Shown here: positions 9,880-42,007 of the stretch, in pieces
Position numbering within the stretch: position 1 is the first letter of the stretch
Layout of the letters: each line of letters opens with the position of its first letter
DNA from: Ptychomitrium polyphyllum
Taxonomy: Eukaryota
DNA: 64,000 nt
Direction: 5' to 3'
NCBI GenBank assembly: GCA_973851085.1
Contig: OZ316775.1
Coordinates: forward strand, 558,001 to 622,000
The notes under the pieces: generated by a model
What the model was told of the DNA's origin: nothing
Seen by the model: only the letters and a program-made list of their open reading frames with translations
The model's database searches: none
Translations under genes and position numbers: made by a program

Positions 9880-10283
9880 CCTAGTATTTTATGCAGTTTG
9901 CAGGGCCTACATCTTTTTCAGATGCAGAATAGAAATTCGCAACATCAATACGGTATATGAATAACTTATAATTCAGATCCTGGTGGGAATAATCATCACT
10001 CTCCGACTTGCAGGAGACGGTAGTAGCAAGGGAGTTCCTTTAGATGTACAGCAAGCACAACTTCATGACATAGTTTCTTTAGATAACTTTACACGATTTG
10101 TTTTGCATACTTGACTTTTCTGATGAGTGCATGCGAGATTTTGTTTTCAGGAAAGCTAGAGCAGAACCCAATTTGACGGATTTACATGCTTCCTTGTCCT
10201 GTCGAAGTAACACTTATTGGCCTTTTCTATAGTCAGTAGTTTGGAGCAGAAGAAGGGAAACAGGTATTGAGAAGAATTTAGTG

Positions 10284-11312: not shown

Positions 11313-11435
11313 TTAGGTAGATAACAGTGTTTGTAACATAATCAAAGGCTTAACATGATTCCAGAAGTCACAGAAGCTAAATTTTGTGGACATGTTGGCC
11401 CGTTTGATGATTTCGATGCATATGATGACTACTCA

Positions 11436-16072: not shown

Positions 16073-16959
<887 letters not shown>

Positions 16960-17968
16960 GGCGACGACGGAGACACGGAGCCCCGAGCGAGAAAGTGAAG
17001 GAAGGAAAGGCAGTGTGCGTGTGGGCTTGCTGCCCTAATCCCCTTCTCGCCCCCTGCCCTCCCGCTGTTGCCCTAATTGGCCGGGCTTTGGTAGGGGTGC
17101 TGTTCCCCATTCTGTGTTGCTTTAGATCGACGTCCTCACCACGTTCCACTCGAACTACAGCATCGGTTCTCCGTTTGCTTTGCTGTTTCCGAAGTGCGAG
17201 CCCATTTCATTCGAAAATTCTACGACATGCGGGAAGGTGAGGTCATCTTGCAAGAGTGAGGAAAGCCGATTTTTCTTTTGGTGAGGGTAATGGCAACGAC
17301 GTAAGTTAGTTTCGGTTTTGTAATCGAGAAGGACAGGCAAGATTATTGCATAATGCGTGCAAGTAACATGGTATAGTTAAAGTACGCATATTCAACAATT
17401 ATTGTCAGGAACTCATTGGCTAGTTTGAAAAAATTTCGTTACGGGAATATTGTAGAAACTACAAATGACACACGTTAATCAGAAGTTTCCTTTCCATGTA
17501 TGCAAGATATAGTTTGTTAGTTGGCCAACATGTACTGAGATAAGTATTGTTGATTGCTGTTTTTTTTATACGCTTAAACAACGTGTACCAAAGTTTTAAG
17601 CATTTCACCTTCTGTATAGTAACGAATCAATTTAATATGATCATATAAATTTGGTACCCATATTAACCATAGAAAGATAAAATGAGAAGACAAAAGTAAA
17701 GGAAATATGACAAAACACCTATGGCCCCTATCACGTCCAAGATTTGATAGTGGATTACCCTTGTTCCTATGCAATTGTAAAAAGTAAAAAAATAAGTAAA
17801 TTCACAAGTGCAGACAGACGGATATCCTGATATTTAAAACCATTTCTTCCATACTACGCCCTAAAACCTAAAAGTGTAGCGAAACCCAACGGCAGAGATG
17901 GCAAAATAACTACTAGATCTAAAGTTACTTACTTAGTTGATAAAAACGCACAGGAAGTAGCCCTTTCC

Positions 17969-18068
17969 NNNNNNNNNNNNNNNNNNNNNNNNNNNNNNNN
18001 NNNNNNNNNNNNNNNNNNNNNNNNNNNNNNNNNNNNNNNNNNNNNNNNNNNNNNNNNNNNNNNNNNNN
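17969..18068. other. Assembly gap (100 N, placeholder size)
   Basis: Run of 100 n interrupting RPL8 copy B. Confidence 0.99.
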
Positions 18069-18371
18069 CACGTTGCCGATCGACAGAGTCGCCTTCTTGC
18101 CGCAGTACACGAACTGCCCCGAGTACATGCCCTCGGCGGCGATGAACCGCTCCTTCTGCCGTTTGAACCGGAACGGGTGCCGGAACGTCACCTTGCACAG
18201 CGGCGCCCCGCGCCCGGAGTCGTGCACCACCTCCGACACCACGCCCTTGATGTACCCGTTGCGCTCGGCGTAGTCCAGCGACCGGAACTGCGCGGGGCCC
18301 TTGCGGCGGTGCGTGTGGCTCCGGAAGATGGAGCCCGCTCCCTTGCGCTGGGCGCGGATCACACGGCCCAT
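18069..18371 (-). CDS. RPL8: 60S ribosomal protein L8, copy B (5' part only, runs into the gap)
   Basis: [10 protein letters not shown]...ATLSIGNV, then N. Has GVVSEV where A and C have GVLSEV, and a different 5' flank, so it is a distinct copy. Confidence 0.88.
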
Positions 18372-19947
18372 GGCGACGACGGAGGAAATGCAAAGGCGCA
18401 GAGAAACAGACACAGACACTGACACAAAGACACAAGGGAAGTCCCTACAGAGAGCGAGGGCGAAAAGAGGGCCTGCGGACTAGTGCTGCTGCGCCTTCTA
18501 CCCCACCGGCCGCCTCGTAACCCTAATTCGTGCGCGACCCATTTGCATGTTCCTTCCCTTGCGCTGGGTAGGGTATAAATGGTTGCTCCCTTAGACCCAC
18601 CCAGCGACTGGTTCTTGTAAGCGTTGATTGTATTGCAGTGCATGTGTTGATTTCCGTTTCAGAAGTCCGAATCTGATTATTGTTGAATCTAAATGCATCC
18701 GATGAGGTTTAAGTTATGTATGTCCTATAATATGGCAATAATGATTGCCGTTTTCAATTAAATCCAATTTAGATAAAACTTTTAAGGTTTTGTACAAAAT
18801 AAATTTAAAATTGTAGTTTTTTTATACATTTATTTTTCTTTGGAGATTTTGTTTATCATGTAAATGTTTTTTTTGGAGAAATTACATGATTTAAAGAGTA
18901 CATTCTTGAGTTAATTTATAAATTAACATTGCATATCAAGGTAGATGCAACTATCAAAAATGTATTATCATATAAATTCAAACTAGTAAATTATTACAAG
19001 AGTAGATATCTTAGATGCTCACTCTTATGTATCTTAATATGAAGTACACACTTGTAAAGTCTAGGTTTCTACAATAAATTGCAATTTCATTATTTGTTAA
19101 TTTTTGTTATCAAACCTCTTAGGTCCTTCAATCTAAAAATAATTCTAAAAAAATCTGTCTCATCCAAAAACAGTGTGTTAATGATAGAAAATACCTTTGT
19201 GGTTGAAATCCACTATTCAAAGAACAACCTTTATATATGCTGAGCAAAAGATTTATTCACTATTCTACATTTAAAGACAAAACATCATTCTAAAATAACT
19301 CAATCTACAATCACTATAACTAATATAAAATCATTAAAACATTAAAACAACTGCAAGAATAGATTGAAACAAATAAAACTTTGTACAATTTCATTAGAAG
19401 TAACTGTTGTACATTAATAAGGATAAAACCTAATCATTCAAATAATATAAGAACTAGTTACTACACTACTAACCTTACCAATGACATAATATAAAAACTA
19501 GCATATATTTTTAATTCTTTATTATATGGACTTTGCTGATACAATATACGTTGCAGGCTTAATGTTATTAATCTTGCAAATCCTAAAAAACCAAAACTAC
19601 CACACATCGTTGTCCATTACCCTCACCAAAAGAAAAATCGGCTTTCCTCACTCTTGCAAGGTGACCTCACCTTCCTGCATGTAGCAGAAATTTCGAATGG
19701 AACGAGCCCGCACTTCCGAAAAAGCAAGGCAAGCGGAGAACCGATGCTGTAGTTCGAGTGGAACGTGGCGACGACGTCGATCTAAAGCAACCCAGAATGG
19801 GGAACAGCACCCCTCCCAAAGACCGGCCAATTAGGGCAAGAGGGGGAGGGCAGGAGGCGAGAAGGGGATTAGGGCAGCAAGCCCACACGCTCACACCCTT
19901 TCCTTCTCTCCCTTCCTCGCTCAGGGCTCCGTGTCTCCGTCGTCGCC

Positions 19948-20833
<886 letters not shown>

Positions 20834-23800
20834 AGGAGTGACAGTGGTGGTCGTGGCAGTCGAGGAAATTAGTGATGGAGTTATCATTGAGTTTTTTTGC
20901 TGAGGACGAAAGTGATAAAGAATTAATGCCAAAGAGACAGATTTGGGTCCACTGTCTGCTGCAACTGATGTGCATGGGTTGGACATCTTTTTTGAGATTT
21001 GGTCATCAGTTTTGGCATGAGCGTCGGAGGTTTCTGCACGTGTATCCGTTTGGAGCCTCAGACGCTAAACCCTGAACCGAAACCCTAGAAGTGGTGTGAG
21101 GTTTTTCGAGTTTGGAATCCCGACGTAGTGCGCTCGTTGTCGTGTGGCGTTTTGTGCTGTGTAATTGTAATGCTGGACAAATAGGTATGTGTGTCTACAT
21201 TAGTGAGTGCTGGTCTTCTGGTTTTGGTTCTCACCCTGCGGCGAGGCAGTGTGGCGCTGGCTTGATTCGGAACGGGACGGATGGTGCTGTGTTTGATGTT
21301 TCTTTTTTCGAAATTTGGGAATTTTAACTGGTTGCTTGGGTGTTTTCGGAAGCCCTAGGCTGGCTGTTTTTCTCGGTTTGTAGTTCTTTGAGTGGAGTTG
21401 CTCGTGTCCTGTGAGTGTTGCTGAAGGCATGTTCGTTCCACCGGTCCCAGCCTTGTGTTCAGCAGCTTCCTTTCCAGAGGAGGTTTTCCTGGATCCTGAC
21501 GTGGTGATTTGTCACACGAGGAGGATGTACTGAATCGCAGATTGGCCCGTCATCGTCCCCAGCCGTGCCAGTGCCGGAGGTGTATCACATTAGTCAATGT
21601 GGTGTCTTCGCAGTTGAAATGCTCGCATGACGTGCGATTGTCGTATGTTTGACCGTGATAATCGGTGCTGTCTGGTCTTCTTCTACCAAGTGCCTGGACC
21701 GAATGCGTGGGATTACGGTAGGTCGTCGACGTGGCAGGCACTCGTCCCGAACTCGCTCATGTTTTTAGAATGCAGCAACGAAAGTTGCAGGTGAAGAACA
21801 AGGCAATTGGGTTGGCTATGGCGGAGAACAAGGCTGCTTCATCTTTTTAAACATATGTAGGTCTTTCAGGTCTCTTACAGCCTTGTGTGACACGCATAGG
21901 ATGTGTAGATGCAGGTTGTAGTCACCTTTCTAAGGAATACGGCATCAGTATTCTGATGAAATAACCACTCAGTGGTCGGACATACTTGAAGAATGCACTG
22001 TTGTGAACAGAAAGAGACGGAGCACTTCAGGTTTGTATTATAATTGCCTAGATTTGAACAATCGGACGCAGTGGTCTCACCAAGATGTGCAGTTGCGGTT
22101 CGTTAGCATGGGTTTTGCATCGGATAGGTGTTTTAGGGCGATTTTTTGAGTGGCTTTCCATCAGCGGTTGCTGGTACTTGATTTCACTTCTGGGGCTGTC
22201 GATCCGTATGCCGTTGATCGTGGAGGCGAAATGAGTCTTGTGTTGTAACCTTATGTTGTGTGTAGTATGGGTTTTTTTTCCAATTATGAAGGAGTACGGG
22301 TGTAGTATGGATGGGTAGCTGTTTTGTTGTGGTTGCTTGTTTGTATCGTGGACATAGAATCGTGGTTTAGGATTGTTTGTGCTATGTTCAGAGTAGACAA
22401 GTTATATAGCACGTAATTTTAAATAGTGTATCTATTAAAGAACCGAAATTTGTAGGAATATAGTGTAGTGCACATTTATGTGTTGGCTTGTTTTTGTTGT
22501 TTATAGTGTTAGCTGAGATTGATGCTTTATCATTGGTTGGATGTGTGTACAAACCTGCTATATCTCGTCTGGTCTAATTTACAATGGATTTGGTTTTGGG
22601 GTTGATGTATGTGGTCACTTTTCACTCTGACGTGAAAATCTATGAGGGTGGAACCAACTTCACACAATAACTTGTCATGGTACCGTTTTGAGTGTTGGAA
22701 CAAGTCAAAGTATGGGTTTAAATGTTGGTTGGTACCGAGTTTGAATATATTACTCAAGAAGATCATTGTGTGACTGAGGGTACTATATTTCGTTATGTAC
22801 ATTCGAGTTCATTCACCATTTGTGGTAATTAGGGCATGAATGTGTAACACTTTATCGTTAATGTTTCCTCATTTCAGATTTGAAGATGTCAGGTCTGTAG
22901 TCTAGGATTGTAGTAGAGAGAGAAGCGGTTATTTTCTAGAATAACTGTTTTTGTTACTAACACGAAAGTTACGAAGATGATTTTACGATGTGAGTGCAGT
23001 CGGATCTCCTTCTCAAAACGTTATTTAAATGCAGGGTCCAATAGTGTGTTGTAGCATCTCATTCAGCCGCATGTCAGTTGATCGTATTGAACAGAAATTG
23101 CTACGTGGAAACGATGTCAAACATTTAGGACAGCGCCCCCAAAGTCCACTGCGCACTAGCACTGATTCCCTGATTTTGTACTGTTGTCTGAGGTATTGGA
23201 GGCAAACAGACTCCCATAAGTTAGTTGTGAAACTAGCCAATGAAGATTGCTTCCACATTCAGCCATGACATAGATCTAGCTCATCGATCATCAAGTCCTT
23301 AAAGAAATTTGAAGACACTGGAGGTCTGCCCAAAGTTAGCCCCGCCTCCTACAGCGACTTAAAAGCGGTTGCGGAGCATATGCTCTTCGTTTTACAAAGA
23401 TTGCGGAAGCGTAATCGTGAACTAAATTACCTTCTGAGTAGCCTCCACGGTTGACATCGAGGGAACTGGAGAAGTTGAAGATTTCGGAAGTCTGGACACA
23501 GTCAACTGAGCGCCGGCTTCCACAGTGATGAAGAACGTCCTGATTAAAACTCTTCATTCTAGGAAGATTTTTAAAGACAAATTGTAGATCGTGGGAATTT
23601 ATTCGAGATGCTGAGTAGATTCGAAGAGCATTATAGCGAGGGAAGACTTGGGAAGTCTGGCCAATGTGAGTTCAGGAGCACTAATTCTTCGATCTTTCAA
23701 GAGTTTTAAGATAATACGTGGATTTCGTGAGGAGAAATCAGAAAAGAGATAGATGCCAGGGGCGTCAACGGGCGGGCGGAAGAGGAAGACGAAGCAGAGG

Positions 23801-24078
23801 AGCCAAGCGATGGCTTTCGCATGCACCTGAACCCGGCCAACCTGGCGGCCTCGCTGCGCCGCTCCCCACGGTTTTTCTGTCCCGTCCAAGCTAATGCGGG
23901 AGCGCCTAGCAGTGACTCCTTCGCTTCGTGTGGCGGTTTTTGTTTTTGCTTCGCGTTCGGAGTAACGAGGTTGTCAGTAGGCAAGTAGCGGCAACTTTCT
24001 TATCATTCTCCGCGGAGGAGTTTGGAGTTCCTGCAGAGTCGAGGTGTTGGAATTCGGATAGACAGGTTGAGCTTGAAG

Positions 24079-25193
24079 GTTAGGTTTCTTCTGCTGATGT
24101 TTTTTCTGTTATCATTTTCACATTTCAGTTGTTGTGTTGGATTTTGTGCTCTCCGGTTTGGGAACACGTTACGGCTGGCCATCGCGGTGCCTGCGCTGTG
24201 AACTCTCGACTCTGTTGGTATTGTCGCGAGTCAGGAGTCTGGGCCGCAGTATTTTGAGGAAAAAGGAGGCGCTCAGTGTGTTTTCCTCCTGTGAATTTCG
24301 CCTGAACATGCTCAACAAGCAGATTTGAGCTATGGAAAGTGCTTCTGTTTGCGCTGTCTCGTGCGGATCATGATCTTAGAGTTTGAGTTGTTGGAAATAG
24401 TGGTTTGTTCGCTTTACTTTTGTTCGGAAGTGATTTTCAATGCTAAGTGGAATTTTTAGCTAGTCAAAGTTTCTTGGCGTTTTAAGACGTGGTCGAATAT
24501 CTTCTCTTTATGGAAGTTTTTAGTGTGATAATTGATTCACTCGCAATCCGAGTTTTGGTTAAAACTAAAGGTTAAATCTTTCGGGACGCTGTAAAGGAGA
24601 TCGAGAGAGATTTGCACAATTTTGGTGTGAAGAATTGGATTTAATCTCGGGATGGAGTGATCGATTAGTGGTAGAGAGTGCGATTAAAATTTTACAGTTG
24701 CAGTTCTCCTTGTCTAGCTGCTACTTGTTTCTTACCTATGTCTCTAGCTCCGAGACTGTGACTACAGAATTGAAAATCAAAATGCCCTGTGTCTGCTGAA
24801 ACGTTCTCGTTGAATAAGAATCCGCAGAACATATGATTTTATGTACTTTTGCTGCTGTCTTGCTTTCAACGACGGAAGGGATTGAGAGCAGAGCAGTGCT
24901 CAATTACATCAGGACTTGAGTTCTGCGTACCAGACTATTGATAGACAGAGAGGAACGGGCATTCGAGTTGATTGCTTTCTTGTATTAGGTGGTCTGCTGA
25001 AATTTATGACGACACCAAAAAGTTCTATTTAGTGTGCATTTACTTTTGATTTTCTAGAAGCGTTGGTGTTTTACTCGTAGTGATTGTTTTATGTGAGTTT
25101 TATTTGATGGATTGAGCTGAATATGAACTTGATATCGTCATCACGTGGTGCGTGATTCCTTGTTACCTTATTGTTTATGATTTTCCATGTTAG
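24079..25193 (+). other. Probable 5'-UTR intron of the PEPC gene
   Basis: Donor gaag|gttagg at 24079 follows a GC-rich leader-like region. Acceptor ttttccatgttag| at 25193 lies 17 nt before the ATG. No transcript evidence. Confidence 0.5.
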
Positions 25194-25210
25194 GCTGGTA
25201 GAGCTTTGGA

Positions 25211-28200
25211 ATGGCGCAAATTCAAGCCAGTCTGCATGCCGTTGTCAGGTACATCAACTCGATCCTGAACCAGCTTTCTAAACCTCGAGGTCTTGACACT
25301 TGAACCTGGTGCAGTTGAACACGAAAGTATCTTTCTCAAACATATCTGAAATCTGATGGTGGTTGAATTTTTCCAAGTGGTTGTTCTATAATAAAATTGG
25401 TACACGAAGGAACTGAAAGAAGGATACGTTTCAAAATCAACAAACATGTATTGTTGGATTTAAGGGGGCCAATAATTTGCTGAAGGGTCAACCTCCAGCC
25501 CGATTTAAGTTTCTCGTCAATACTTGTCGAGTAATTGGCATAACATTTTGGGGACAGTTGAACACTGGAGGTGAAGGGCTGATTTTCTATTCAATTTATC
25601 TCTATTTCTAAACAAGTCCTGGCAAAGTAGGAGAGTCATTGCACTCAACAGGGGTATTTTGCAGAATATGAAAGGTAATAAATGGTATTGATTCTCATGC
25701 TCGATTGTTTGGATTTTGTCCTCAAGACTCTTGGTTCTAGTAGATGGTTTGTTATCAGAGTTTTCTGAACAGCTTCATCCACTAGAGCAGTGTAATCTGT
25801 ATTCGGCATCAAGTTTGCTTACATAATGGAATATTAAGTGAATATGGAGTAATCTACTGTTCCTTCGTTATGGGAGTTTAAGTGCTTTATGTGAAACTCT
25901 CTTCTCCTAAACCCAAAGAAAGATTTGGAAGCGGACCAACTTATGGTTGTGGCTTCCCTGTTTATTAAGTGGCGTGTTTAGGCGCTTGATACATCCTGGA
26001 ACTTTTAGTACCTTCGGTGACAATTGGAGCTGGGGTTCTTCTTAAAAAGATTAATGTGGAAAGGCGTACGGCTGCTATTATAATTATAAACAATCGTTGG
26101 GGCTTGATCTGTTTTGTGTTTGTGTTTCGGTGCAGACCATCGTTACAGTCCATTACTGCAGGAAGGTCGAGCAAAGAGCTGCCTTTGCAGCATGGACAAG
26201 TAAGTCATACTCGTGGTTCAATGTTCTAATGCGTCGATTTTGCATCAAGTTGTCAACACGGGAGAGTGTTGGGGCTGATTTCTTGGTTTAGTCGTTTGCA
26301 TCCTCATCGCATGGCCTTTCCTACATTTGACATGATGTTATTATTAATTTTTCGTTTGTGATTTTCGTTCCGCTTCGACCTTTTTGTAATATATCTTGTT
26401 TTGAATCTGATATTCTGAACGTTTGGAAAATATTTATGCTGTTATTGCAGGTTCCTAGAACCACCTTCTCTAACAAGGGGGACCCTATTTCACTTTCATG
26501 TTTTCGAGGAAGCTTACGAGGCACGCATTGGTTCTTAGGAAAAGCATCATCAAGAACTCCTGGAAGGTGCTTCACTTAGCAAATTGCTACCATGTATTTC
26601 ATGACTAACTCGAAGTTAATGTCGTCTCATTTTATCAATGAGTCCTTGTGCATGTGCTTGACCTGTGCATGTGCGTTTGTGCACTTCAGGAGAGGCGCGA
26701 ATATAAGGAGTCCTGTCGTCGCTGGGACCTCAGGAAATCACTCTCCTGAATTAGGAGGAATAACACTGACCGAGGACAATGCAAGCCTTTCTGTTTTGGA
26801 TGAATCACCTGGGTCTAGAGTAAGCTACACTACTGACACCGATAGTGAAGGTGAAGCTGAATACAGTCTGGCTTTTGATAATGAGAGCATGCCTGGTTCC
26901 ACTGTGGTTGGTATCGATGGAATGGACCAAGATAATCTGCTTATGGACGTAACTTTGAGCTTCTATGAGATGGGCATCAGGTATCTCCCTCAAACTAAAC
27001 TGGCATTTAAGTTTAAAGTTATATAATAGGTTTCCTTGATGAAGCGATTATCAATTCATCTAGAAACTGCGTACAGGAAAACATATGACACAGGAAATTT
27101 AGATGACCTGAACTTCCAAAATGTCCTGTCACCATGTGGCTTTGCTAGTGTTGCTTTTTCAGATTCCCACATTCGCATCGTGCCGTGAACTCAGTGTGGC
27201 TTTTACAAATGCTTTCATGGTTTTTTTACGATGCCTGACATTTGACTGCTGCATCCCTTCTAGAGATGAAGTTGACTAGGTGTTTCAGTCTTCGTACATA
27301 GCAAGTGTCCTCCTATTGTATTTTAATCGCCCATTTTCATTACGATTGTGAATAATCTGATTATCATCATAGTCGAAGCCCAAGATTAGTATTTCCCTCC
27401 GATCTGATTTCTATGTTCTTCATTTTATCAACAGTGTCCAGAGTGCACAAGTGCTCACAAAGGATAATCGCGTAGTGGACATATTTATTGTCTCGGACGC
27501 TGAAACGAGAACAGCCATTCCCGAGGATAGATGGCCAGACATCAAAGAGAAGATCTTTGCCAAATTAAAGCGACGTAATGTTCTCAATACCACTACTGGC
27601 GATCCCAAGTTAGCGGAACAAGTAAGCTCATCTCATGGTTCTTTTCTTTCTACGCAGATATCTCTCGTTGCTTTATATATATACCTTGTCTATCAGAAAG
27701 AGAGGTTCTAAGAGCAAACAACTGTAGAGGCCAATAAGTTGGTTGATCAATATGATGTTTAAACTGAGGATTGCCGATAATGATAGGCGAAGAGCCAACA
27801 AGTAGTTTAGGAGATATTGAAATGTGTGATGTGATAGGACTTACTGGATCACTTGTTCTGAACAGGTTACATTTTTGACCCAAACTTTGAACAAAGCAGT
27901 CCGTGATGATGGTAAAGAGGATGTGCTTGAAGCAGTAAGTTTTCAAAATTGGTATTATTGACTTTGCGGAAAATGTGAATCTTAGCATTGCTGAGTATTG
28001 GACTGGCTTTAAATGCGTTATACTTTACTGAAAGTGGATTGCAAATAGCCTTGAGAGGAGCATCAGTCGCCAGTCCCGGAGACGGTCTTGCATGCAGTGG
28101 TATGACACAAAGCAGTACTATTAATTTTATTTCTACGTGTTTGGATCAGGCTTTTTTCCTGCAAAATGGATTTGAAGGGTTACGTCATAAGGAAGATCCT

Positions 28201-31200
28201 CGTAAGCGCGCTGACTTGCTACGTTACATAGAGAAGATGGAGGAGAAAAAGGTATGGTCTTCATAGTTCGGTTTGCCATTTTTCTATCTCGAATACGCTT
28301 TGTAACACGTTAAATGTTTTCCTTGTTTTTACTCATAACATGATGTTTTTCTTAATATCGTGTACATCCATTAAAAGCCAAAGAGTTTCTCTTTAATGAA
28401 ATCGTTTCTTATCGGTGATCGAATTGCTGCAGATAACCGCAGTTATTCGTTTATTCTATTTGTATTCATCTCTTCTGAACGTAGCAGACGAAGCCCATAG
28501 TCATCGACTACGTCGAGAGCAGGTACTATTTTGAATTAGTCTTCGCGTGCACTCCTTGGAATTTGGTAGATGTTCCGGTTAATCGAGATTTGCAGCTGCA
28601 GAAATATCGTGATAGGGTTGAGGGGATGCTCATTGCAAATTATTACCTTCCTCCTTGTAATTCGTTCGACAAAGTTTTAGTTTGGGCCTTTTGAGTTTTG
28701 CAGGTGTGGGCTAGCAGAAATGCAACACCGCTTTGGTTTGCATCCTTTGATCACTCTCTAAGAGCATTTAAGAAGGAAAATGTAGGAGCAGCTGAACTTC
28801 AAGAACTGTTGAATCGAACTGAGGTTAGGCTCATTATTACTTTGGGCACCTGTGTTCGTTTTATTCAACAAATTATTTATTGCTTACGATGTCAGTACAT
28901 AAATTTCAAAGCAATTTGTCACTGGCAAACATCATATGCAAGAGCAGACATAATAACTATCACATGTTGATAGAATATCAAGTTTAGTATTTCTATTTTA
29001 ATGTGTTCTGCCAATCATGTGTGATAAATTCTGTACTGTGCCGTTCTAAATATTCTGTGTGCTTGTGGTGTCAGTACAATCCAGTCTTTACTGCTCATCC
29101 AACGGAGGCTCGGCGCAGAGAAGTTCTTACATGTTTGCATCGTATCTTCCTTCTCTGCAATGATCGCGAGGTGTGCTTCATATTTTCTCTTTGTCTCACA
29201 ATCGAAAAACTGTTTATCGTGCAATCTTGTTTTATCTTAGCACGCTTCGTTGCCTATTCATAGGAATAACTGCTAATCAGCGAGCCGCGCTTAGAATGTT
29301 GATTCGTCTTTTCGCCCTTTGTAAGGTCGTTGAAGGGGAAGGCTTCTCTGTTTGTTTAACCTTGAATGTGTGATTTCTGTTTTCGAATTTCAATTATTGC
29401 TTTCAGATTTTATTTCTTACTTCAAACTTTTGGCCTGTTATGAATCATTCTGGACTTTCCACATTGTTCCACAGTTAGTACATATGTGTTTCTCAGACTG
29501 CTTAAACTGCATATTGAGAAGAGAGCATTTTAATAAACTGGTAACTTTGTGGTATGTTATCTACAAAGCCCGCTGTGACACATCGATGGCATGCAGGATC
29601 CGAGACTTAGTCCAGCTCAGAAGGCAGAACTGGAGGTTGAAATTGAGGCTGAGGTAAGCATGATGGTTATCCATGTGGTCATTTTTCCATAGTTGTTACC
29701 ATTTTTGCCAAATACATGAGCCTTGATTAGCGACTAGAATTCATTTATCATTATATTTTGGTCGTTACAGGTCGAGATACTCTGGAGAACGGATGAGATG
29801 CGAGCAACAAAACCAACTGTCTTGGAAGAGATAGTTACAGGACTTGATTACTTCCGTTATTCACTTTTTGAGGCTGTGTGCACCACATATCGATATGCTG
29901 AAAACTCCGTTAATGTAAGTAATTTACTCATAAATTAGTATTTCTTGAAATTCACCTCAGTTTTAGCAGGAGGTAATGTTTCCTAACAGCACCTTGTAAC
30001 TGCCCATGTTGACAGGCTATATACCCAGATGAAGGTGTTGCTGTTCCGAGCTTTATTAAATTTGGATCGTGGATTGGTGGTGACCGTGACGGCAATCCTT
30101 TTGGTTAGTTTTGATCTTGTTGCAATCTACACATGCTTTTTTTCCCCTCTAGTGTGGTAAAGAGTGAAAAATCCTCAGGAAAAGTCTTGGTGTTATTGTG
30201 ATTCTTCGTAAGCTACTCATTTCTCCTGTTTACTCTTACACTGAACAATGAACGTGAGTATCTCTATTCTTCAGCATTAATGACTAAGTCAAAATCGCAA
30301 TGTACAGTATGTAGGGATTCTTATTCCGTTGTGGAATTTACCGAAGGGAATCTACTGTGGATTCACAATACACAGACACTAAGGAAACTCTCATCACTCT
30401 GTTGTTTAAAAGTGATGAAGTATATTTATTTGTGAGCAGTTACAGTGTCTTATCAAACCGCATGATAAATTAGACCACATTGGTAATGACGTCCTACTAC
30501 AATCTTTAGCAAGAATTCTTGGACTACAATTGTTCTACGTAAATACCGTAGTCTATAGTGGGCTAGCCAACTATATATTGACAAAGATATCCTATTTGGT
30601 TGGGTGAATCAGTTCGACCCGAAACAACAGTAATGGCAGCTTTGCTGGCAAGTCGCCTCATCCTGGCTGAATACATTCGTCGTGTCCGTGCATGTCAGGT
30701 GAAGCGACTTGCCTCTGAAAACTGTTTCGTTATTTGCATGTCGCAAATTCTAAGAGTTATAGATAGGTTTGCAGAGAAATAACTTTACTTTAGAATCTTA
30801 GCTATTTATTTGTTTATTTGTGTATTTTTATAAGTTAAAAAAAATTTCACGGGTGTGAGGTAACCATGTTGAAGGGGTACATGCACATGAACTTACCTCT
30901 ATTTGTGTTGGTAACCAAGAAGATTATCTAAGCGTAATATTGTTCCGTAGCACTTTTCCGTTTTGCTATGTGGCACTGCTCTGAGGTTATCCTCTTCCAA
31001 TCTCCTATGTTTTGAGATACAGAATTAGTGATTGAAGGATTGTCTTGTTACATTAGAAGAAAACCTTAAAGCATACAGTACTTGAGAATAGGTAGCGTTT
31101 TATGATTATATTATGTATGTTATAAAAAGAGTGGCCCATTCATTAAGAAACTACTTATTGTACATCTTTTTGGCAGGACACGTTGACGCACTCTCGGCTC

Positions 31201-34200
31201 ATCTGTGAAATATCACCAGAATTGTTGGAAAGCCTAGAAGAAGACAAGAAAGTGATGGAGCAGATTCCTGCAATTCGCTTTGATGGTGCCCTTTTTGAGC
31301 AAGTGCGTTCCTGATTAATATTGTGTTGGTATTCTTTGCTCTGCACATTTTAACTTGCAAATGCATACATTAGTTTCATATACCAGTTTTGATTGTGCTT
31401 TTTTCTACTTTTCTTTCAATTAACTTGAAGCATCAGTATTTCAGTTTTCTTATCAGTGATTTCAATTGCAATGAAGCAGGAGCCATACAGACTCAAACTG
31501 AGGGTCATGCGGCACCGACTTGAGCAAAGATTAAGGGGTGTCAATGCTTGCCTGCGTGAGTTAGGAAAGGCAGGCATGCATGATGAAGTATGTTGTCAGG
31601 TCACCAAACCCTGAATGATTTTAATTGTATGTGATTAATTGTACCTGAACTTTCAATACTGTTGATAGTGGTACCTTTGGTTATAAAAATTTACATTAAC
31701 AACAAGATTGGAAACTTGTAGCTATATCATATATTCTGGATAGCTGTAAAATCATCAACTAAAAAATCAATGTCATAGAGAATTGTAAAAAACCTAGTAC
31801 CTGCAAGAGATCATCAAGGCGAGAATGATACTTCATGTAATCTAGTTGATGTTCTTGACAGTCTAAGTAGGAATTTGTCATAGGAGTTGACATGCTTACA
31901 CGTACAGAAGTTCTTTAGTCATATGCTTGCATCTTATGACATGTTTCTTGTCTTTAATTAAAAAGGTGCTGTATTTGATGAATAGATGTTGCTTGAAATG
32001 AATAAAAGATCGTAACTGGTAATAAAACACATGTGGTGGTGAATATAAGCAGAACCGAAAGAGTAAAGACACTGACCTAGGGCACCTCATCTACTAGTAA
32101 AGGTATAATACTTTGAGTAAATTCTACTGATAATTGATGTTTAATAAGCTAACAGTTGAGCAAACTGTTAAGTCATTGATGCTGACATTATTAAACAGCA
32201 TATAACATGTAACAAGCTTTGGTTTTAAACAACCGGCTGCGCACACTTAAGGAGCGTTTTTCTAAGCTCATAAAAATTTCGGTTTAAAAAGAAAGGACCA
32301 TTATTCGGGTTTAAACAGTCAAGTTTCCAGTAGACTTTTAATTCATTATGGCCATTGAAGATCTTAGAGTGCTTACGTTGTGGATCGGTTGGTTGTGTTT
32401 GTAGTTGCTGATAGACATTGAGTTCAACATTGACGAGATCCCCGGACTGGACCCAAAGAAGGATGCTTATGTCAGTGAGGAACTGTTTCTGAGGGATTTG
32501 AAACTCATTGATGTGGGTCCCCTCTTACTCTCTTTAAACATGGCATTTGTAACATTATTCTGATTCGGTATAATCGTGCTTACATTAATAACAGTTTCTT
32601 TTGTAAGATGAATTAACTGGAAACTTATCTAAACTTCATGAAGTTCCTATCATTTCACAGAATGTTACAAAGCAATCTCGTTAGTAATGTCATCTGCGTC
32701 AAATTTCAAGCTATTGCCAAAGTACCTTCTTATTCTTATATGAAGTGTGTCTCTCTTGCGCACACAGCCTAATCAACGAAGTAAGTGTAGGTTATCGAAG
32801 TTGGTACGGTCAATGATGCTCTACTTGTATGCAGTTTTCTTTGCGCAAAGGTGGAGATATTCGCTTGGCGGATAGGAAATTGAAGGATTTGATCCGGCTG
32901 GTTGAAACATTTGGTTTCTATTGTTGCGCACTTGACGTCCGGCAGGAGTCAACAGTTCATTCTGAGGTATAACTGAATTTCTTTGGACGTGTTTTTCAAA
33001 ATATAAAGACGTTTGGGAAACACAACAGAACAGCACTTGGGCCTCTTGTTTTTTATTATTTTGCTGATAATGCATCTTGGAGTCAGTTATTTGTTTTTCT
33101 AAGTTAGAAGTATCACATGGACTTCTGAGGTTCTGGATGATTTTCATGGATTCAGACAACAAACGAGATTATTCGACTTTTAGGGCTGCATGACAATTAC
33201 AGCTCACTACTAGAGGAAGAGCGCATGAAGATGCTTGCAGAAGCGATCTCATCTCCACCTCCTGTGGAAAAAGTCGAGGTTTGTTTCTTGCCATCCTGTT
33301 TCTAAGTTTCTGCCGGGGTTTCAAAGCTGTTACAAGGTGTGGCAGTGTCCATCTAAGAGGCGGGCTGGTGTTCGCTCTCTGCAAGCAATATCTTTATTAT
33401 GGGTCCCTTTGAATTTACGTTGTTGATTTGACAACCGGTCTATTGCAAAAGGTTCAGCTGTATACCTGTGCTCGATGTACGAGTATGTTTTCAGACTCTC
33501 CCAGAGCTATTCATTTCTTTTAGAATGGGCATGCACTATGGACAGGATGATGTTTCACCTTCTGTTTGCCTTGAAAACTTATTGTATTCGTGTTTCCAGG
33601 GCTTATACAAAACTATGTCAGACTCTTCGAGGGAAGTAGTGGAGCTCTTCTTTGCCATGGCTGATATCAGGGAAAACATCTCAGAGAATTCTATAGCTTC
33701 CTATGTTATTTCTATGACTCGACACGCATCTCATGTGATGGAGGCAAGTGTTTCCTACCTCTTCTTTGCCAGTATCTTTTTGAATTATTATATGTTATTC
33801 TGAGACATCGAATCATTGGTACTGTGTCAGTCTCTTGACCTTCTTCACTTTTGCGAAAGGCTGGACCTTTTCAGATCCCTAGTGGAGTTCAAACCCGGTG
33901 AAATCTATGCAAATTAATATTTGATATGGGTATCTTTCTTCGATACAGTTCTCTTCCAACTCATTCTTCTTCGAAACAGGTCTTGTTTCTTGGGTGGTTT
34001 TCGTGCAAGAATTTACTCGAGAAAAAGGCGTCGGGAGAATGGAATGCACAGCTGGTGGTTGCCCCTCTTTTCGAAACTATTCCGGATTTGGAGGTAATGT
34101 CGAACTTCTTGAATACTGATCTGTTATGCGTACTCATTGCTGATACGAACAGTCATTTTCATGTCTCACGTGTTCATTGTTGTGCCACTTTAGTACGGCA

Positions 34201-37200
34201 GTAGTCTTTTGTGTTAGTGATGCGCTCGTTCACTTGCGGTCCACTTAGACGCGTTTTACAGAGAACCGGATAAGGATGTTCCACAATAGTCTACTATCCG
34301 GACATGTCTTTGATCATGGACCAAAGAGCCCGAAAAAGCTGTCATTGACTGCCAAATCCTTATGTTGCCTGCAGAACATGCCAGGAGCTTTAGAGTCACT
34401 TTTTAAAAACGATACATATAAAGCAATCTTGATGGCTTCTGGAGGTATTCAGGTATTTTTAGTCTGACAGTTGGACATGATATTACCTGCACTAGTATGT
34501 TGCACCCTGGAAAAACCATGAGCTAGATCGCTGTTCTTTTGAAGGTCGCCGATATGCTTGGTGGAACTGTTTTACATTTGAAGAGGATTCATGAGAAATA
34601 GCATGTTTTCAGGAAATTATGCTTGGGTACTCAGACTCCTGCAAAGATGGAGGTATTACAGCTAGTGCATACAACCTATACAAGGCTCAATCTGTAATCC
34701 AGAAACTTACAGTCGAGGCAGGAGTGAAATCCTGCATTTTCCATGGTCGTGGTGGTACTGTTGGACGTGGAGCTGGCCCAACTCACGAGAGTATCTTATC
34801 TCAGGTAATTTGTACGATGACTGCATATCCCTATTTTCTTTAATCCTTCTGATCAGAAACTTCAGGTTGCTAAGAAATACGAGATCTTCTGGTTAGATGC
34901 ATGCTGTGGTACAAAAGTCTCGGCTATAGGAACCCTGTTCACAAATATGTCCTTCTTGGGTGTAACATCTGCTCACCTCTCCTTAGATTCGCGTTCCTAT
35001 GAACCTGCTTCACTTTTGTAATTTTTATCTTCTTTTCACAAGTTCTAGACATTCATATTCTTTTAAATGATTGTCGTATAATGATTCTAGAGTGTGCTGA
35101 GTCCTGAATAGCACTATCAAGGACGTGCCTCTTTAATTGAATTCCCTTTCACTTGCTGGCAGCCACCAGGCAGCGTGGATGGGAAAATAAAGTTCACAGA
35201 GCAAGGAGAAGTTATCACTTATCGTTATGGTAATGCTCAAACGGCTGCATACGAATTGACTGTAAGTTATTCATACCTTGTCATTCTGGTTAGTTCATGT
35301 ATGTATTATTGACATGACGTTGGTGCAATCTCAATTGCGAATGCTGTTGTTTGTCTATATGGTTTGTCTAAACTCCAAATCCAGAACACTTCAGACCACG
35401 CTAGTGCAATTATATACTAGTAATTTTGTGATTCCGTCAAATAGCTTCTAAAGGCTTCTGCTCCTTAATTTGCGATCAGGGTTTTAATCACAAGATCTTG
35501 TTATGGCAGGTTGGTATTACAGGGCTTCTAAAAGCCAGTCATCCTGCAACTCGAGAACGTGGCAATTATGAGAAGGTGAGCAACCCCTTGACTTTTGAAT
35601 AGCAATGTGCACGCAGTAGATAGGTTTAAATCTGGTAGCATGTTTGCAATTTGAAGAATGTGTTGAATTCGGATCCATCTATTTGCCGTTCCTCATCCAA
35701 TCTCGCAACCCGGCGTGTTATTATGCGTGCATTTGAACAGATGTGCCAATTTGGTAGCGGAGAAGCTGCGCAACCGCCTAGTAACATGTTTTACCGTTAT
35801 CTGTTACTTAACATACAGTGTTGTGTTATGACAGTACTTCTCTACCATGGAACAGCTAGCGACAGCTGCAGAGAAGTCCTACCGTGATCTGACCGATGAG
35901 ACGGAAGGATTTTATGATTATTTCTATGAATCAACCGTCGTAAACGAAATTGGTCTCATTAACATTGGCAGTCGTCCTGCTCGTCGTAAGGCTGCTGTTC
36001 GAGACAAGTCTTCATTGCGTGCCATTCCCTGGGTCTTCGGTTGGGCTCAGGTGTGTCTTTACCCCACAACGATGAAATCTTTTTGAAATCTTTTGAAACC
36101 TTTGTCAAGGAAGGATTTCTGCAAGCTAAGTACTTGCTTGTTAAGTGTGTTTTGCACAGGTCATGTTCAGTTCATTATAGTAGGTACCATAGAATAGACC
36201 TACCTAACTAACCTCTCATTGCTTCCCTTATCATCTAGGTTGGAGGAAAGGCAGAGTCTAGGAGTAGACTTCATTACTCATGGCTGGATTCGCGGTCCTT
36301 GGTCAAATTGTGCCTACGCATGACATAAATCTGCCTAAACGTATTCATAATTTTAGTTGATGGAAAGCTGAACCGGTATCTTCATCAAGAAAGCTAAGTT
36401 GTAAGGACTGTCAGGCGAATAATATTCAGTCGAAACAATTTTGTCTTTGTGGAACTCATATTTGTTTTATTCTGAATGTGTGTGTGACAGTCCAGGCATA
36501 CTTTGCCAGCATGGTACGGGGTGGGCAGCGGCATTGCAAGTTACACACGAGATGAACCAGAGCGAATTCAGGAGCTACAGATCATGTATCAGGAGTGGCC
36601 CTTCTTTCGCACTTTTCTGTCAAATGTGCAGGTATTTCTCCTTTTCATTCAATCAATGATTAGAGGCCGAAAGTTCATTGGCAGTCTTGAACTGGTTGAT
36701 TTGATTGAATCATGTCGGCTCACTGGGGTGCACCAAATTTTTCGAAACAAGAATGTCACTTTGTCTAAGCAATTTCCGTCTTGGTTTGATCTTACCAATG
36801 CAAAGAAAATAGGCATCACTTAAAGCTTTTGACGTATAAATCTTCAATTTTTCTTTAATTCCGTCTCGGGGCTGTCTGTAAAGGAAGCCTTAACAAGTTT
36901 GTCATTGGTATGTTGACAGATGTCTTTATTCAAAGCATCAATGGAGATTGCTCAAGAATATGCACGGTTATGCTCGTACGTGTCCTGCCCATTTCCTTGC
37001 TATGCATGCTGAGTTGCAACTTGATTTCACTTTTAAAAATACTATTGGCTATGTGCACCTGATTAGGAGAAAATTTCAAGTTTCGTGCTATCCTTCCAAG
37101 CACAACAGGTCTGTTGTCGTCGTTTAGTCGAGCGATATTCAAAATGCAATGTTTCAGAGAGAAGATCGTGTTGTTGGTAGCTTTAGAGTGCACGAAATAG

Positions 37201-38454
37201 ACGTCGGCATATAATAATCTTAGTTTGAAATGATCCCTTATGTGGCTTTACGAACACATGAAATCCGAGGCTTACTGTCAGTCTTTGAACTCTTCACGCA
37301 CTAGTACTTATAGTTATGTATCCATCATTTTCAATGCAGAAATCGAATCACACAAAAGCTGGTGTTTGATCTAGTAGCTCAAGAGTATTATCTTACCAAG
37401 GCTCAGGTTATTCACACTTTCATTTTTACTCTAGTTATGAGCTAAAGTTGCTAAAGAACAATGTCCTTCACTATGTATGAGGTTGATTATTGGTGGAACT
37501 ACAAGGAATTGATTGTTCATGGAAATGCTACATTCCATGGGTTTTGGTACATAGAGTAGTAAAGCGTTATACACTGTTATTTCCTAGTAGAGTAGATTCA
37601 AGATGTTCCATGTGTTTTATTTCCAGTCAATCAGGCCTTAAATATCGACGAGGTTACAGGTGTCTTAAGATTAGTGTAGCCTGTACTCGGAATCGAACTT
37701 GGTCGTAGGAGGGATTTCCTTGCAGTGTCTAATCGTTCTTATTGCAAATGTTTATTACTTAAAGCTAATTTGACTGGGTTATTAAACTATATTCCTTCTT
37801 CTTAGTCATAAATATGATAGCATATCTCTTTCCATTGGTTAACTGAAAGATGCCTGGGTTGGGTGGTACAGTTTATGATGGTTTCGCAGCAAAATAAGCT
37901 GCTCGAGGACAATCCTTCATTGGAAAGTTCATTTGGCACGCGACGAAAATATTTGGATCCTCTCAACCATCTTCAGGTATTTCATCTTATTGAAAACTCT
38001 TGATATGCGATTGTTTGAAACTATCACCTGTAATGAGTATCTCTGACAAGGATGCCACATTCCTTAATGAATTTGGCGTTAACCTATTGAGGACCACAAA
38101 TCCAAAAACGGCTGATTGAGGTGGTCCTTGACGGGGTAATGAGCACCTAATATGTCCTATTTTATGTTCACCATGGTCAGAATCAGCCAGTTCATGCCGG
38201 CATAATCCTTCAGATTCTGCTTTTCTTACCAAAATACTCTACTGAGAAAGATTGATTTTTTGCTACACCATGCAGTGGTAGACCTCAACTTTTTATGATA
38301 AAGAGCTCTAATTCTTGTCAACCTGATGTGGAAGGTCATTTTATTGGGCCGTCAAAGAGACCCCACAGCATCTGAGGAGCATAAGCCTCTATGGGAGAAG
38401 CCTTTGCTCAGGACCATCAAAGCCATTGCCAGCAACATGCGTAACACTGGCTAA
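25211..38454 (+). CDS. ppc: Phosphoenolpyruvate carboxylase with N-terminal transit-peptide-like region and ACT domain; 30 coding exons, about 1157 aa
   Basis: Hand-spliced exons: 25211-25248, 26136-26199, 26451-26566, 26690-26980, 27435-27621, 28150-28251, 28433-28522, 28704-28823, 29075-29170, 29597-29653, 29771-29914, 30016-30103, 30613-30698, 31177-31302, 31480-31587, 32405-32512, 32835-32966, 33156-33278, 33600-33743, 33980-34093, 34375-34452, 34613-34804, 35163-35261, 35510-35575, 35835-36050, 36491-36631, 36920-36975, 37340-37406, 37872-37976, 38335-38454. Total 3474 nt, phases compatible, no internal stop. PEPC motifs: [80 protein letters not shown]-terminal MRNTG*. The three smallest 5' exons are the least certain. 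Confidence 0.93.
26874..27560 (+). other. ACT domain (ACR/GlnD-like) in PEPC exons 4-5
   Basis: Spliced sequence [76 protein letters not shown] matches the pattern 'DN.....T.v.v...D..gLL..v...l....l.i..A.i.t.......D.F.v.d' of plant ACR proteins and GlnD. Confidence 0.8.
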
Positions 38455-40830: not shown

Positions 40831-42007
40831 ATGGTCATGGCCGCGACCTCCTTCTCCATGGCGGCTCTCACCGCCGCCTTGCCGTCCGCCGTGGCCACCA
40901 GGAGCACTAGTACTCCCATCTGCGCACGCGCGGCTGGGGTGAGCGTCATCCGGACCTCCCCTTTGGTGGCCAGGTCGCACACCGTGGCGAAAGCTGTTGG
41001 GTTTCAGGCGTTCGATGGTCTTCGCAGCGAAAATGCGTTGCAGCTGCGTACTGGTAAGTCTCAGTGTCTAGGTTCTTGGGAAAAGTCATGATTCTGGGGA
41101 ATGATTGGGTTGGGTGGTTTTTGGGTTTGTGTTGGCGTCTTTTCTTTTTAGTTTTTGTTTTCTGAGGTGTTGGTTGATGAAGCGCTGGTGTTCGGTTGGT
41201 TAACCTCGTGGTTGAACTCCACGTTCTTGTACCTGGATCTTTGGGCTAGGTGAATCGAGGTAGTAGACTTGGAATTGACTACTGAGGTTATCAGCGGTTT
41301 CGAACATCGAAGTTTTATTAGGTCTGGAAATGTGCATTATAGGGCGTGTTCGATGTGCGTTCGAGAGCTGATCCAAAAGTGGTATGAATGAATGAAGCGG
41401 ATGTAAGGTGACTGAGTCTTGGAATACATAGCATGTTTTTGGGTTGTGTCCAAAATGTTTAATGTTAGATTTGGCATGCAATAGTATGTAAGAAGACGTT
41501 CCTTGAAGTTTCGACATGGAATTAGGTTAGAATGGTGAATTGTATCAGAATACATGCAGAAGACTGGAAAGTTTTGATACGGACTATCTTTGTTTGACAG
41601 GATGCACTTTTGAGTCGATGGGTTTGGGAATCACCAATGGTGCTAAGTGGTTCGCAATGAGACACGGTCGCAAAATTCACCGTCTGGGCAGACCTGCCGA
41701 CCAGAGGCGCGCTCTCCTCAGAGGTCTAACCACCGAAATTCTTCGTCACGGTAGAATCAAAACCACCCGTGCCCGTGCCACGGCTATGCGCAAGTACGTC
41801 GACCACATGATTACTCTTGCTAAGGGAGGCTCCCTTCATCAAAGACGGCAAGCATTAGGGTTCCTTTACGATAAACAGTTAGTGCATTCTCTGTTCGCTG
41901 AGGTGCCTGAGAGATATGGTGAGAGAAATGGTGGTTACACAAGGATTATCCGGACAATGCCTCGAAAGGGCGACAATGCCCCCATGGCATTTATTGAGCT
42001 CGTTTAG
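40831..42007 (+). CDS. RPL17: Plastid 50S ribosomal protein L17 (bL17c) precursor; exons 40831-41053 and 41601-42007, about 209 aa
   Basis: [37 protein letters not shown]...[27 protein letters not shown]. Exon 1 is an Ala/Ser/Thr-rich transit peptide. Phase-1 GT-AG intron 41054-41600. Confidence 0.95.

What the first reader, a model, noticed from the sequence alone, without database searches (positions are those of the whole stretch)
25211..26740. Transit-peptide-like leader suggests a plastid-localised PEPC
Seen: spliced N-terminus [84 protein letters not shown]. It starts MA, is Ser/Thr/Arg-rich, has only two acidic residues in about 84 aa, ends in a V-x-A cleavage-like motif and is followed by an acidic linker. 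Established: plant PEPCs are almost all cytosolic; rice Osppc4 is the known plastid exception and is linked to ammonium assimilation. Inference: convergent origin of an organellar PEPC from a different gene lineage, placed alongside plastid GS/GOGAT.
Basis: partly seen in the sequence, partly recalled or inferred. Interest (0 to 1): 0.75.

Follow-up and report, generated by a model that had tools for sequence, protein, structure and literature searches.

The report
Ancient plastid PEPC with ACT domain
This moss gene encodes the carbon-fixing enzyme PEP carboxylase from a third, little-noticed green-plant lineage, found from marine algae to clubmosses, that carries an extra ACT domain and is likely imported into chloroplasts, where it would supply carbon skeletons for amino-acid synthesis.

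Summary
The leader is real. A 31-exon model (25211-38454) gives an open 1180-aa frame, 91.9% identical to an annotated Ceratodon protein, leader included. First, a GlnD/ACR-type ACT domain (aa ~131-216) lies between leader and enzyme. Second, the gene is neither plant-type nor canonical bacterial-type PEPC. It belongs to a third clade (100/100) spanning prasinophytes, Mesostigma, Chlorokybus, Zygnematophyceae, mosses, liverworts and a lycophyte. Its sister group is PEPCs of mainly sulfur-oxidising gamma/betaproteobacteria; grouping with bacterial-type PEPC is rejected (AU p=0.0001). Catalytic and aspartate/malate-site residues are intact.

Plastid location has outside support. The Marchantia orthologue gave 20-22 unique peptides in 3 of 3 published plastid preparations; the two other PEPCs gave 0-10. 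Three predictors call the Physcomitrium orthologue plastid. Against: it is absent from the Physcomitrium plastid list, and aconitase co-purifies in the Marchantia preparation.

A plastid PEPC therefore looks ancestral in green plants, with rice Osppc4 the later reinvention. The nitrogen role and ACT ligand are untested. The clade may equal a 'PPC-3' subfamily recalled from a paper I could not read.

The parts
25211..38454 (+). ACT-PEPC gene, 31 coding exons, 1180 aa, C-terminus RNTG
   Evidence: open spliced frame; 91.9% identical to Ceratodon purpureus M758_1G193600
25211..25248 (+). coding exon 1: start Met and uncharged first 12 aa of the predicted transit peptide
   Evidence: 7/12 and 9/12 identical to the two Ceratodon paralogues
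26136..26199 (+). coding exon 2 (predicted transit peptide, aa 13-34)
   Evidence: tblastn E 7e-8
26451..26566 (+). coding exon 3 (predicted transit peptide, aa 35-72)
26690..26723 (+). end of predicted transit peptide; V-V-A cleavage-like site at aa 82-84
   Evidence: VVA/VIA at the same column in Ceratodon and Physcomitrium; cleavage itself untested
26724..26861 (+). Ser/Gly-rich then acidic linker (aa 85-130), predicted disordered
   Evidence: pLDDT under 50 for aa 1-130 of the orthologue model
26862..27573 (+). ACT domain (aa ~131-216), split by intron 4 (26981-27434); closest to the C-terminal ACT of GlnD and to ACR-type domains
   Evidence: Pfam on orthologues; profile search; models and fold search; Atlas leads at 0.86-0.90
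27610..38454 (+). PEPC catalytic core (aa ~229-1180; exons 5-31); catalytic and Asp/malate-site residues kept
   Evidence: Pfam PF00311 on 6 of 10 exon pieces tested; residue mapping to E. coli Ppc; fold search
23881..25210 (+). possible non-coding first exon (donor after 24078) and 5'-UTR intron (acceptor before 25194); predicted only
   Evidence: splice-consensus scan; would fit the 32 exons reported for an independent moss PEPC branch (PMC8435749)

Best explanation
The gene encodes an intact PEP carboxylase of a third green-plant lineage, built as leader, acidic linker, ACT domain and enzyme, which is likely imported into the chloroplast stroma and would there fix bicarbonate onto PEP to supply oxaloacetate for amino-acid synthesis. 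[quoted passage not shown] SHOWN FOR ORTHOLOGUES in published tables: strong presence in Marchantia plastid preparations, and plastid prediction for Physcomitrium. INFERRED: (1) the ~84-aa leader is cleaved on import; (2) stromal PEP from enolase or PPDK becomes oxaloacetate, then aspartate and Asp-family amino acids, or malate exchanged for 2-oxoglutarate that feeds GS/GOGAT; (3) the ACT domain tunes the enzyme to nitrogen or amino-acid status, in place of the N-terminal phosphorylation switch of plant-type PEPC, which this protein lacks. INFERRED HISTORY: an early green-plant ancestor acquired a proteobacterial ppc and added an ACT domain and transit peptide. The gene was inherited vertically and lost in Chlamydomonas, Arabidopsis and maize. 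Step odds: active PEPC ~0.9; plastid ~0.85; anaplerotic or nitrogen role ~0.6; ligand-sensing ACT ~0.45.
For: Gene model. Orthologues in mosses, liverworts, Diphasiastrum, Zygnematophyceae, Chlorokybus, Mesostigma and Pterosperma. Trees: 20 of 20 clade rows form one group among 77 rows. In a 40-row IQ-TREE, 13 of 13 clade rows group at 100/100 and join 8 gamma/betaproteobacterial rows at 97/98, while PTPC, BTPC and E. coli sit elsewhere at 100/100. Forcing the clade with BTPC costs 653 lnL, p-AU 0.000116. Identity is 47% to a gammaproteobacterial PEPC against 31% to E. coli and to plant-type PEPC. Mesostigma has both a BTPC-like protein (P0417) and the ACT form (P0020). Leader: 14 of 19 proteins tested are as acid-poor as 1.2% or fewer of their own core windows, a 15th (Marchantia) passes on Ser/Thr excess, and 4 fail. 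Marchantia Mp8g17440 (1191 aa) gave 20, 20 and 22 unique peptides in 3 of 3 plastid replicates and is in the filtered list; the 973-aa PEPC gave 2, 1, 10 and the 1060-aa PEPC 0, 0, 3, neither retained (PMC13419835 suppl.). Mp8g17440 and Physcomitrium 112289779 (= P0229) form one orthogroup with no Arabidopsis, maize or Chlamydomonas member (PMC11581415 suppl.). TargetP, Localizer and WoLF PSORT list 112289779 as plastid and none as mitochondrial. GS, PPDK and an enolase are abundant in the same preparation. The ACT profile's best non-PEPC hits are GlnD, matching its last ACT best.
Against: No localisation or activity was measured for this protein. Physcomitrium 112289779 is not in that paper's experimental plastid column; the column is already empty by row 849, so the list is shallow. 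The same paper shows that predictors lose precision in bryophytes. The Marchantia preparation is not clean: aconitase gave 17, 10 and 18 peptides and is retained, with NSAF 2.8e-4 against 3.8e-4 for the PEPC. Other mitochondrial markers were low (citrate synthase 6 and 3 peptides in the two replicates seen, fumarase 1, Cox2 1). Four of 19 orthologues lack a clear leader (Riccia, Mesotaenium, one Spirogloea-type model, Pterosperma), and the unnamed P0022/P0260 group in the clade lacks both leader and ACT. The loop glycine typical of ligand-binding ACT domains (recalled) is Asn in mosses and liverworts. The top fold hits are the ACT-like domains of bHLH factors, recalled as dimerisation modules. 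The second GRGG motif reads GRGA here. No cyanobacterial PEPC is in the trees.
Confidence: 0.62

Rival explanations
1. The enzyme is plastidial and active, but the ACT domain is a structural or protein-docking module (oligomer assembly, or binding to ACR, GS or GOGAT-type partners) rather than a small-molecule sensor.
For: Best fold matches are the GL3 and R ACT-like domains. The match is to GlnD's last ACT rather than its first (that the first senses glutamine is recalled). The loop Gly is replaced by Asn in bryophytes. ACR11 is reported to act by binding GS2 or Fd-GOGAT (PMC12702975 passages).
Against: The domain is 82/86 identical to Ceratodon, as conserved as the catalytic core. Algal and lycophyte members keep the Gly. 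Ligand-binding ACT domains (SerB2, PGDH, aspartate kinase) are also fold hits.
Confidence: 0.35
2. The plastid enzyme mainly serves carbon or redox handling (bicarbonate recapture, a PPDK-PEPC-MDH malate valve, or PEP partitioning against the shikimate pathway), not nitrogen assimilation.
For: PPDK (33-36 peptides) and enolase (24-27) are abundant in the Marchantia plastid preparation. The clade is kept in algae and seed-free plants and was not found in seed plants.
Against: An ACT domain of the GlnD/ACR nitrogen-signalling type is fused to it. The grass plastid PEPC supports ammonium assimilation (second-hand). A stromal PEPC would compete with Rubisco for inorganic carbon rather than concentrate it (established knowledge).
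Confidence: 0.25
3. The leader targets mitochondria, or both organelles, as recalled for some diatom PEPCs.
For: The leader is Arg-rich and acid-poor. Aconitase co-purifies in the Marchantia preparation. Cross-organelle prediction errors are documented.
Against: No Arg in the first 10 residues and a modest hydrophobic moment (0.41). None of three predictors lists the Physcomitrium orthologue as mitochondrial. Fumarase and Cox2 gave 1 peptide each in the preparation.
Confidence: 0.1
4. This is an ordinary cytosolic bacterial-type PEPC (BTPC) with a disordered N-terminal extension.
For: It ends in RNTG, and has been lumped with moss BTPC in one family survey.
Against: AU test rejects grouping with BTPC. 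Local identity to BTPCs is only 29-39%. It coexists with a BTPC-like gene in Mesostigma, and Marchantia has three PEPCs. The orthologue is strongly present in plastid preparations.
Confidence: 0.04

Closest known systems
Grass plastid PEPC ppc4 (rice Osppc4, wheat Tappc4)
   Same: PEPC with an N-terminal transit peptide; proposed anaplerotic role in the plastid
   Different: ppc4 is a plant-type PEPC whose targeting arose after the ppc1/ppc4 duplication near the grasses (PMC9358456). This gene is 31% identical to plant-type PEPC, ends RNTG, has 31 coding exons and an ACT domain, and dates at least to early green plants.
Plant bacterial-type PEPC (BTPC; AtPPC4, Osppc-b)
   Same: C-terminal RNTG; no N-terminal phosphorylation motif; many introns
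   Different: Separate clade; lacks the BTPC N-terminal signature seen in P0416 and P0371; has leader and ACT domain
PEPC of Chromatiales, Thiotrichales, Thiobacillus, Methylophaga and relatives
   Same: Sister group; 45-49% identity; shared motifs around the catalytic His and Lys
   Different: No leader; no clear ACT hit in any bacterial PEPC among 443 proteins scanned (two marginal, E 0.002 and 0.008)
GlnD C-terminal ACT / plant ACR proteins (ACR11, ACR12)
   Same: ACT subtype (profile iE 1e-18 to 5e-23 to the last ACT of 7 of 7 GlnD proteins tested); plastid nitrogen context for ACR11/12
   Different: Single copy fused ahead of an enzyme; loop Gly replaced in bryophytes; no ligand known
'PPC-3' subfamily of Deng et al. 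2016 (recalled; paper not held) and the '32-exon independent moss BTPC branch' of PMC8435749
   Same: Probably or possibly the same genes, noticed as an odd branch
   Different: The passages I could read mention no ACT domain, transit peptide, proteobacterial sister group or range down to prasinophytes; what Deng et al. say is unknown to me

Membership tests
PEPC (PF00311, EC 4.1.1.31) | PEPcase domain and fold | tested here: met
   (892 bits for the orthologue)
PEPC (PF00311, EC 4.1.1.31) | Catalytic and metal residues (E. coli H138, R396, E506, D543, K546, R581, R587, R699, R703, R713; roles recalled) | tested here: met
   10 of 10 identical in the window protein
PEPC (PF00311, EC 4.1.1.31) | Measured carboxylase activity | not testable with these tools
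   needs recombinant enzyme
Plant-type PEPC (incl. Osppc4) | C-terminal QNTG | tested here: not met
   ends RNTG; criterion from PMC4196954
Plant-type PEPC (incl. Osppc4) | N-terminal phosphorylation motif (recalled) | tested here: not met
   that position is taken by linker and ACT domain
Plant-type PEPC (incl. Osppc4) | Falls in the PTPC clade | tested here: not met
Plant bacterial-type PEPC (BTPC) | C-terminal (R/K)NTG | tested here: met
   shared with most bacterial PEPCs, so not diagnostic
Plant bacterial-type PEPC (BTPC) | Monophyly with BTPC | tested here: not met
   AU p 0.000116; BTPC rows were labelled by a recalled N-terminal motif and species names, not by a database class name
Plant bacterial-type PEPC (BTPC) | Hetero-octamer with PTPC (Class-2 PEPC) | not testable with these tools
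   not examined
ACT domain (GlnD/ACR type) | Profile match | tested here: met
   13 of 17 proteins scanned hit an ACT-clan family at E 0.1 or better, 3 of them above the curated cut-off; the closest moss orthologue only E 0.034; clade profile hits GlnD at 2e-25
ACT domain (GlnD/ACR type) | ACT fold | tested here: met
   orthologue domain model pLDDT 89; top hits GL3/R ACT-like, SerB2, PGDH
ACT domain (GlnD/ACR type) | Binds an amino acid or other small ligand | not testable with these tools
   loop Gly is Asn in bryophytes, Gly in several algae and Diphasiastrum
Chloroplast transit peptide | Ser/Thr-rich, acid-poor, uncharged start, disordered, fast-evolving | tested here: met
Chloroplast transit peptide | Predictor call or plastid proteome detection | tested here: inconclusive
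   only for orthologues, from published tables: 3 of 3 predictors plastid and 3 of 3 Marchantia replicates, but not in the Physcomitrium experimental list
Chloroplast transit peptide | Import and cleavage shown | not testable with these tools
   needs GFP fusion, import assay or N-terminomics

The most novel reading that the evidence does not exclude
Green plants ancestrally had a third, stromal PEPC. It came by gene transfer from a sulfur-oxidiser-type proteobacterium and was fused to a GlnD/ACR-type ACT sensor, so that bicarbonate fixation into oxaloacetate inside the chloroplast responds directly to amino-acid status. It is the main PEPC of bryophyte plastids. Seed plants lost it, and grasses rebuilt a plastid PEPC from the plant-type enzyme.
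Probability: 0.4. Interest if true: 0.85.

Novelty: new variant of a known kind. Interest (0 to 1): 0.72.

Why it matters
Reviews and family surveys describe two plant PEPC classes, both cytosolic, with grass ppc4 as the lone plastid exception. A third class with a plastid leader and a fused ACT domain, conserved from prasinophytes to a lycophyte, would reverse that picture and add an overlooked anaplerotic route to algal and bryophyte chloroplast metabolism. It would also be a rare case of a ligand-sensing module on PEPC. It is directly testable: Marchantia (Mp8g17440) and Physcomitrium (112289779) each show one gene in the orthogroup. Surveys that label any RNTG-ending PEPC in seed-free plants 'bacterial-type' may be mixing two unrelated enzymes.

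Tried and rejected
No whole genome is held for the window, so paralogues and the organism's other PEPCs could not be counted. No RNA holder was listed. The two runs laid are DNA-like contigs with no joints: no evidence on splicing or expression. Pfam on single exons found no ACT because intron 4 splits the domain. The Atlas gave no usable hit for the leader. I could not obtain a cyanobacterial PEPC for the tree, so endosymbiotic origin is disfavoured only by the absence of named cyanobacteria among the top 120 hits. The patterns would likely have excluded them. An ACT homodimer job and the wide structural search did not run because queues were full. Masumoto 2010, the Physcomitrella organelle proteome paper and Deng 2016 are not held. 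Supplements of PMC11135702 gave no hit (one file too large to read). Three of 15 supplement files of PMC11581415 were not searched. Ten full-text searches found no description of an ACT-fused or plastid PEPC in seed-free plants, and the gene ids gave 0 papers; subscription journals are not covered. Earlier scan findings: none. Rejected: an artefactual leader (orthologues share it), a recent moss-only gain (clade-wide), a pseudo-enzyme (active site intact), and membership of PTPC or BTPC (trees).

Full report
1. OBSERVATION. The window holds an intron-rich PEPC gene on the + strand. Splice-site scanning and exon joining by coordinate give 31 coding exons from 25211 to 38454 and one open frame of 1180 aa ending in RNTG; 29 introns are GT-AG and one is GC-AG. 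The closest database protein is Ceratodon purpureus M758_1G193600 (P0001, 1181 aa), 91.9% identical over the full length, so the source is a moss. The first 135 aa of three annotated moss orthologues recover exons 2-4 from raw DNA by tblastn; exon 1 appears at the right place for 2 of 3 queries at chance-level E-values. Identity to P0001 is 60/84 in the leader, 82/86 in aa 131-216 and 897/952 in the core. No RNA run was available, so splicing rests on homology.

2. A MISSED DOMAIN. Residues ~131-216 form an ACT domain. Of 17 proteins scanned, 13 hit an ACT-clan Pfam family at E 0.1 or better ahead of the PEPcase domain, and 3 pass the curated cut-off; P0001 itself scores only E 0.034. A profile of 14 such domains returned 36 proteins: clade members, three short unnamed pieces, and otherwise GlnD-type uridylyltransferases (best 2e-25). 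In 7 of 7 GlnD proteins tested the last ACT matched best. AlphaFold models of the Ceratodon orthologue show aa 1-130 at pLDDT under 50 and a folded domain after it. The isolated domain (pLDDT 89) matches the GL3 and R ACT-like domains, SerB2 and PGDH. Two bacterial proteins were marginal at E 0.002 and 0.008.

3. A THIRD LINEAGE. Orthologues were found in Ceratodon (two paralogues), Physcomitrium, Sphagnum, Marchantia, Riccia, Calypogeia, the lycophyte Diphasiastrum, Mesotaenium and Spirogloea-type gene models, Chlorokybus, Mesostigma, Pterosperma and unnamed MMETSP/JGI transcripts. No named seed plant, fern or Selaginella protein was among the top 120 of either search; these searches are word-limited. 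The next hits are PEPCs of gamma- and betaproteobacteria such as Thiohalomonas, Ectothiorhodospira, Halochromatium, Thiobacillus and Methylophaga.

Plant-type references came from a motif scan. Bacterial-type references came from a representative search and were labelled by a recalled motif. In a 77-row FastTree all 20 clade rows group at 100. In a 40-row IQ-TREE subset the 13 clade rows group at 100/100 and join 8 proteobacterial rows at 97/98, while PTPC, BTPC and E. coli Ppc form a distant group at 100/100. Holding the clade with BTPC lowers lnL by 653, p-AU 0.000116 (run after the tree was seen). Branching inside the clade broadly follows the species tree, which fits one early acquisition and vertical descent. 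No cyanobacterial sequence could be added, so the donor is inferred, not shown. One unnamed group in the clade (P0022/P0260) lacks both leader and ACT.

4. THE ENZYME. Ten of ten catalytic or substrate-binding positions of E. coli Ppc and the four Asp/malate-site positions are identical in the window protein (roles recalled). The arginines recalled as the sugar-phosphate activator site are kept too. The whole orthologue model matches solved PEPCs. The second GRGG motif reads GRGA in land-plant and Chlorokybus members; the effect is unknown.

5. LOCATION. Of 19 proteins tested, 14 have a leader as acid-poor as 1.2% or fewer of their own core windows, Marchantia passes on Ser/Thr excess, and 4 fail (Riccia, Mesotaenium, one Spirogloea-type model, Pterosperma; some may be faulty models). 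The window leader has no Arg in its first 10 residues and no hydrophobic core.

Published tables add orthologue evidence. In PMC11581415 (passages and supplement rows seen; 12 of 15 files searched), Marchantia Mp8g17440 and Physcomitrium 112289779 (our P0229) form orthogroup OG0016087 with no Arabidopsis, maize or Chlamydomonas member. All three predictors list 112289779 as plastid, none as mitochondrial, and it is not in the experimental columns. In PMC13419835 (preprint; abstract, first part of Results, MS methods and supplement rows seen), Mp8g17440 gave 20, 20 and 22 unique peptides in three plastid replicates and is retained. The 973-aa PEPC gave 2, 1 and 10 and the 1060-aa PEPC 0, 0 and 3, and neither is retained. 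Contamination check: fumarase and Cox2 gave 1 peptide each and citrate synthase 6 and 3 in the two replicates seen, but aconitase gave 17, 10 and 18. A mitochondrial share is therefore not excluded.

6. MECHANISM (inferred). After import and cleavage near aa 84, the enzyme would carboxylate stromal PEP; enolase and PPDK are abundant in the Marchantia preparation, as is GS. Oxaloacetate would go to aspartate and its family, or to malate for exchange against 2-oxoglutarate. Asp/malate feedback is likely kept. The ACT domain is the candidate nitrogen-status input, by kinship with GlnD and with plastid ACR11 (PMC12702975, passages). A docking role is nearly as likely, given the altered loop and the fold hits.

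7. WHAT IS KNOWN. Passages from PMC8566536, PMC4196954, PMC8784020 and PMC9358456 and parts 1-3 of 4 of PMC3521007 describe two plant classes. PMC9358456 places plastid ppc4 among plant-type enzymes with an origin near the grasses. PMC8435749 notes an independent moss 'BTPC' branch with 32 exons, which fits 31 coding exons plus a predicted UTR exon. PMC8784020 leaves one Marchantia PEPC unclassified. UniRef names some Ceratodon isoforms 'ACT domain-containing protein'. I recall that Deng et al. 2016 defined a PPC-3 subfamily; the paper is not held, and a palm preprint uses that label differently (passages). PMC7455551 (passages) added nothing on this gene. Ten searches found no account of the ACT fusion or plastid location, within an open-access library only.

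8. VERDICT. This is a distinct, ancient ACT-fused PEPC class that is probably plastidial: a new variant of a known enzyme family, glimpsed in surveys but, as far as these searches reach, uncharacterised. Interest 0.72.

Noticed in passing
window 16018-20888: Three near-identical copies of a cytosolic ribosomal protein L8/uL2-like gene (name recalled from motifs): two form an inverted pair 96-98% alike, and the third abuts a run of N. Recent duplication or assembly artefact.
   Followed up: no
window 10233-13651: An F-box/Tubby-like ORF (+) and a phospholipase A1-like lipase (-), tail to tail; names recalled from motifs.
   Followed up: no
window 40829-42007: Gene directly downstream with a transit-peptide-like start and a plastid ribosomal protein L17-like ORF; name recalled.
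   Followed up: no
window 50847-52007 and 58662-60584: An R2R3-MYB-like ORF and LINE-like retroelement remnants; names recalled.
   Followed up: no
window 33744-33745: Intron 20 of the PEPC gene has a GC donor; the frame and orthologue alignment require it.
   Followed up: yes
window 34613-34804: The second GRGG motif of PEPC reads GRGA in land-plant and Chlorokybus members and GRGS in Pterosperma, but GRGG in Mesostigma and the bacterial sister tested.
   Followed up: partly
P0022 / P0260 (unnamed ENA/JGI cluster): Members of the same clade with neither leader nor ACT domain: secondary loss, truncated models or another host lineage.
   Followed up: partly
P0021 / P0252 (Pterosperma cluster): Has the ACT domain but an acidic, non-transit N-terminus, so possibly a cytosolic version or a wrong start.
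   Followed up: partly
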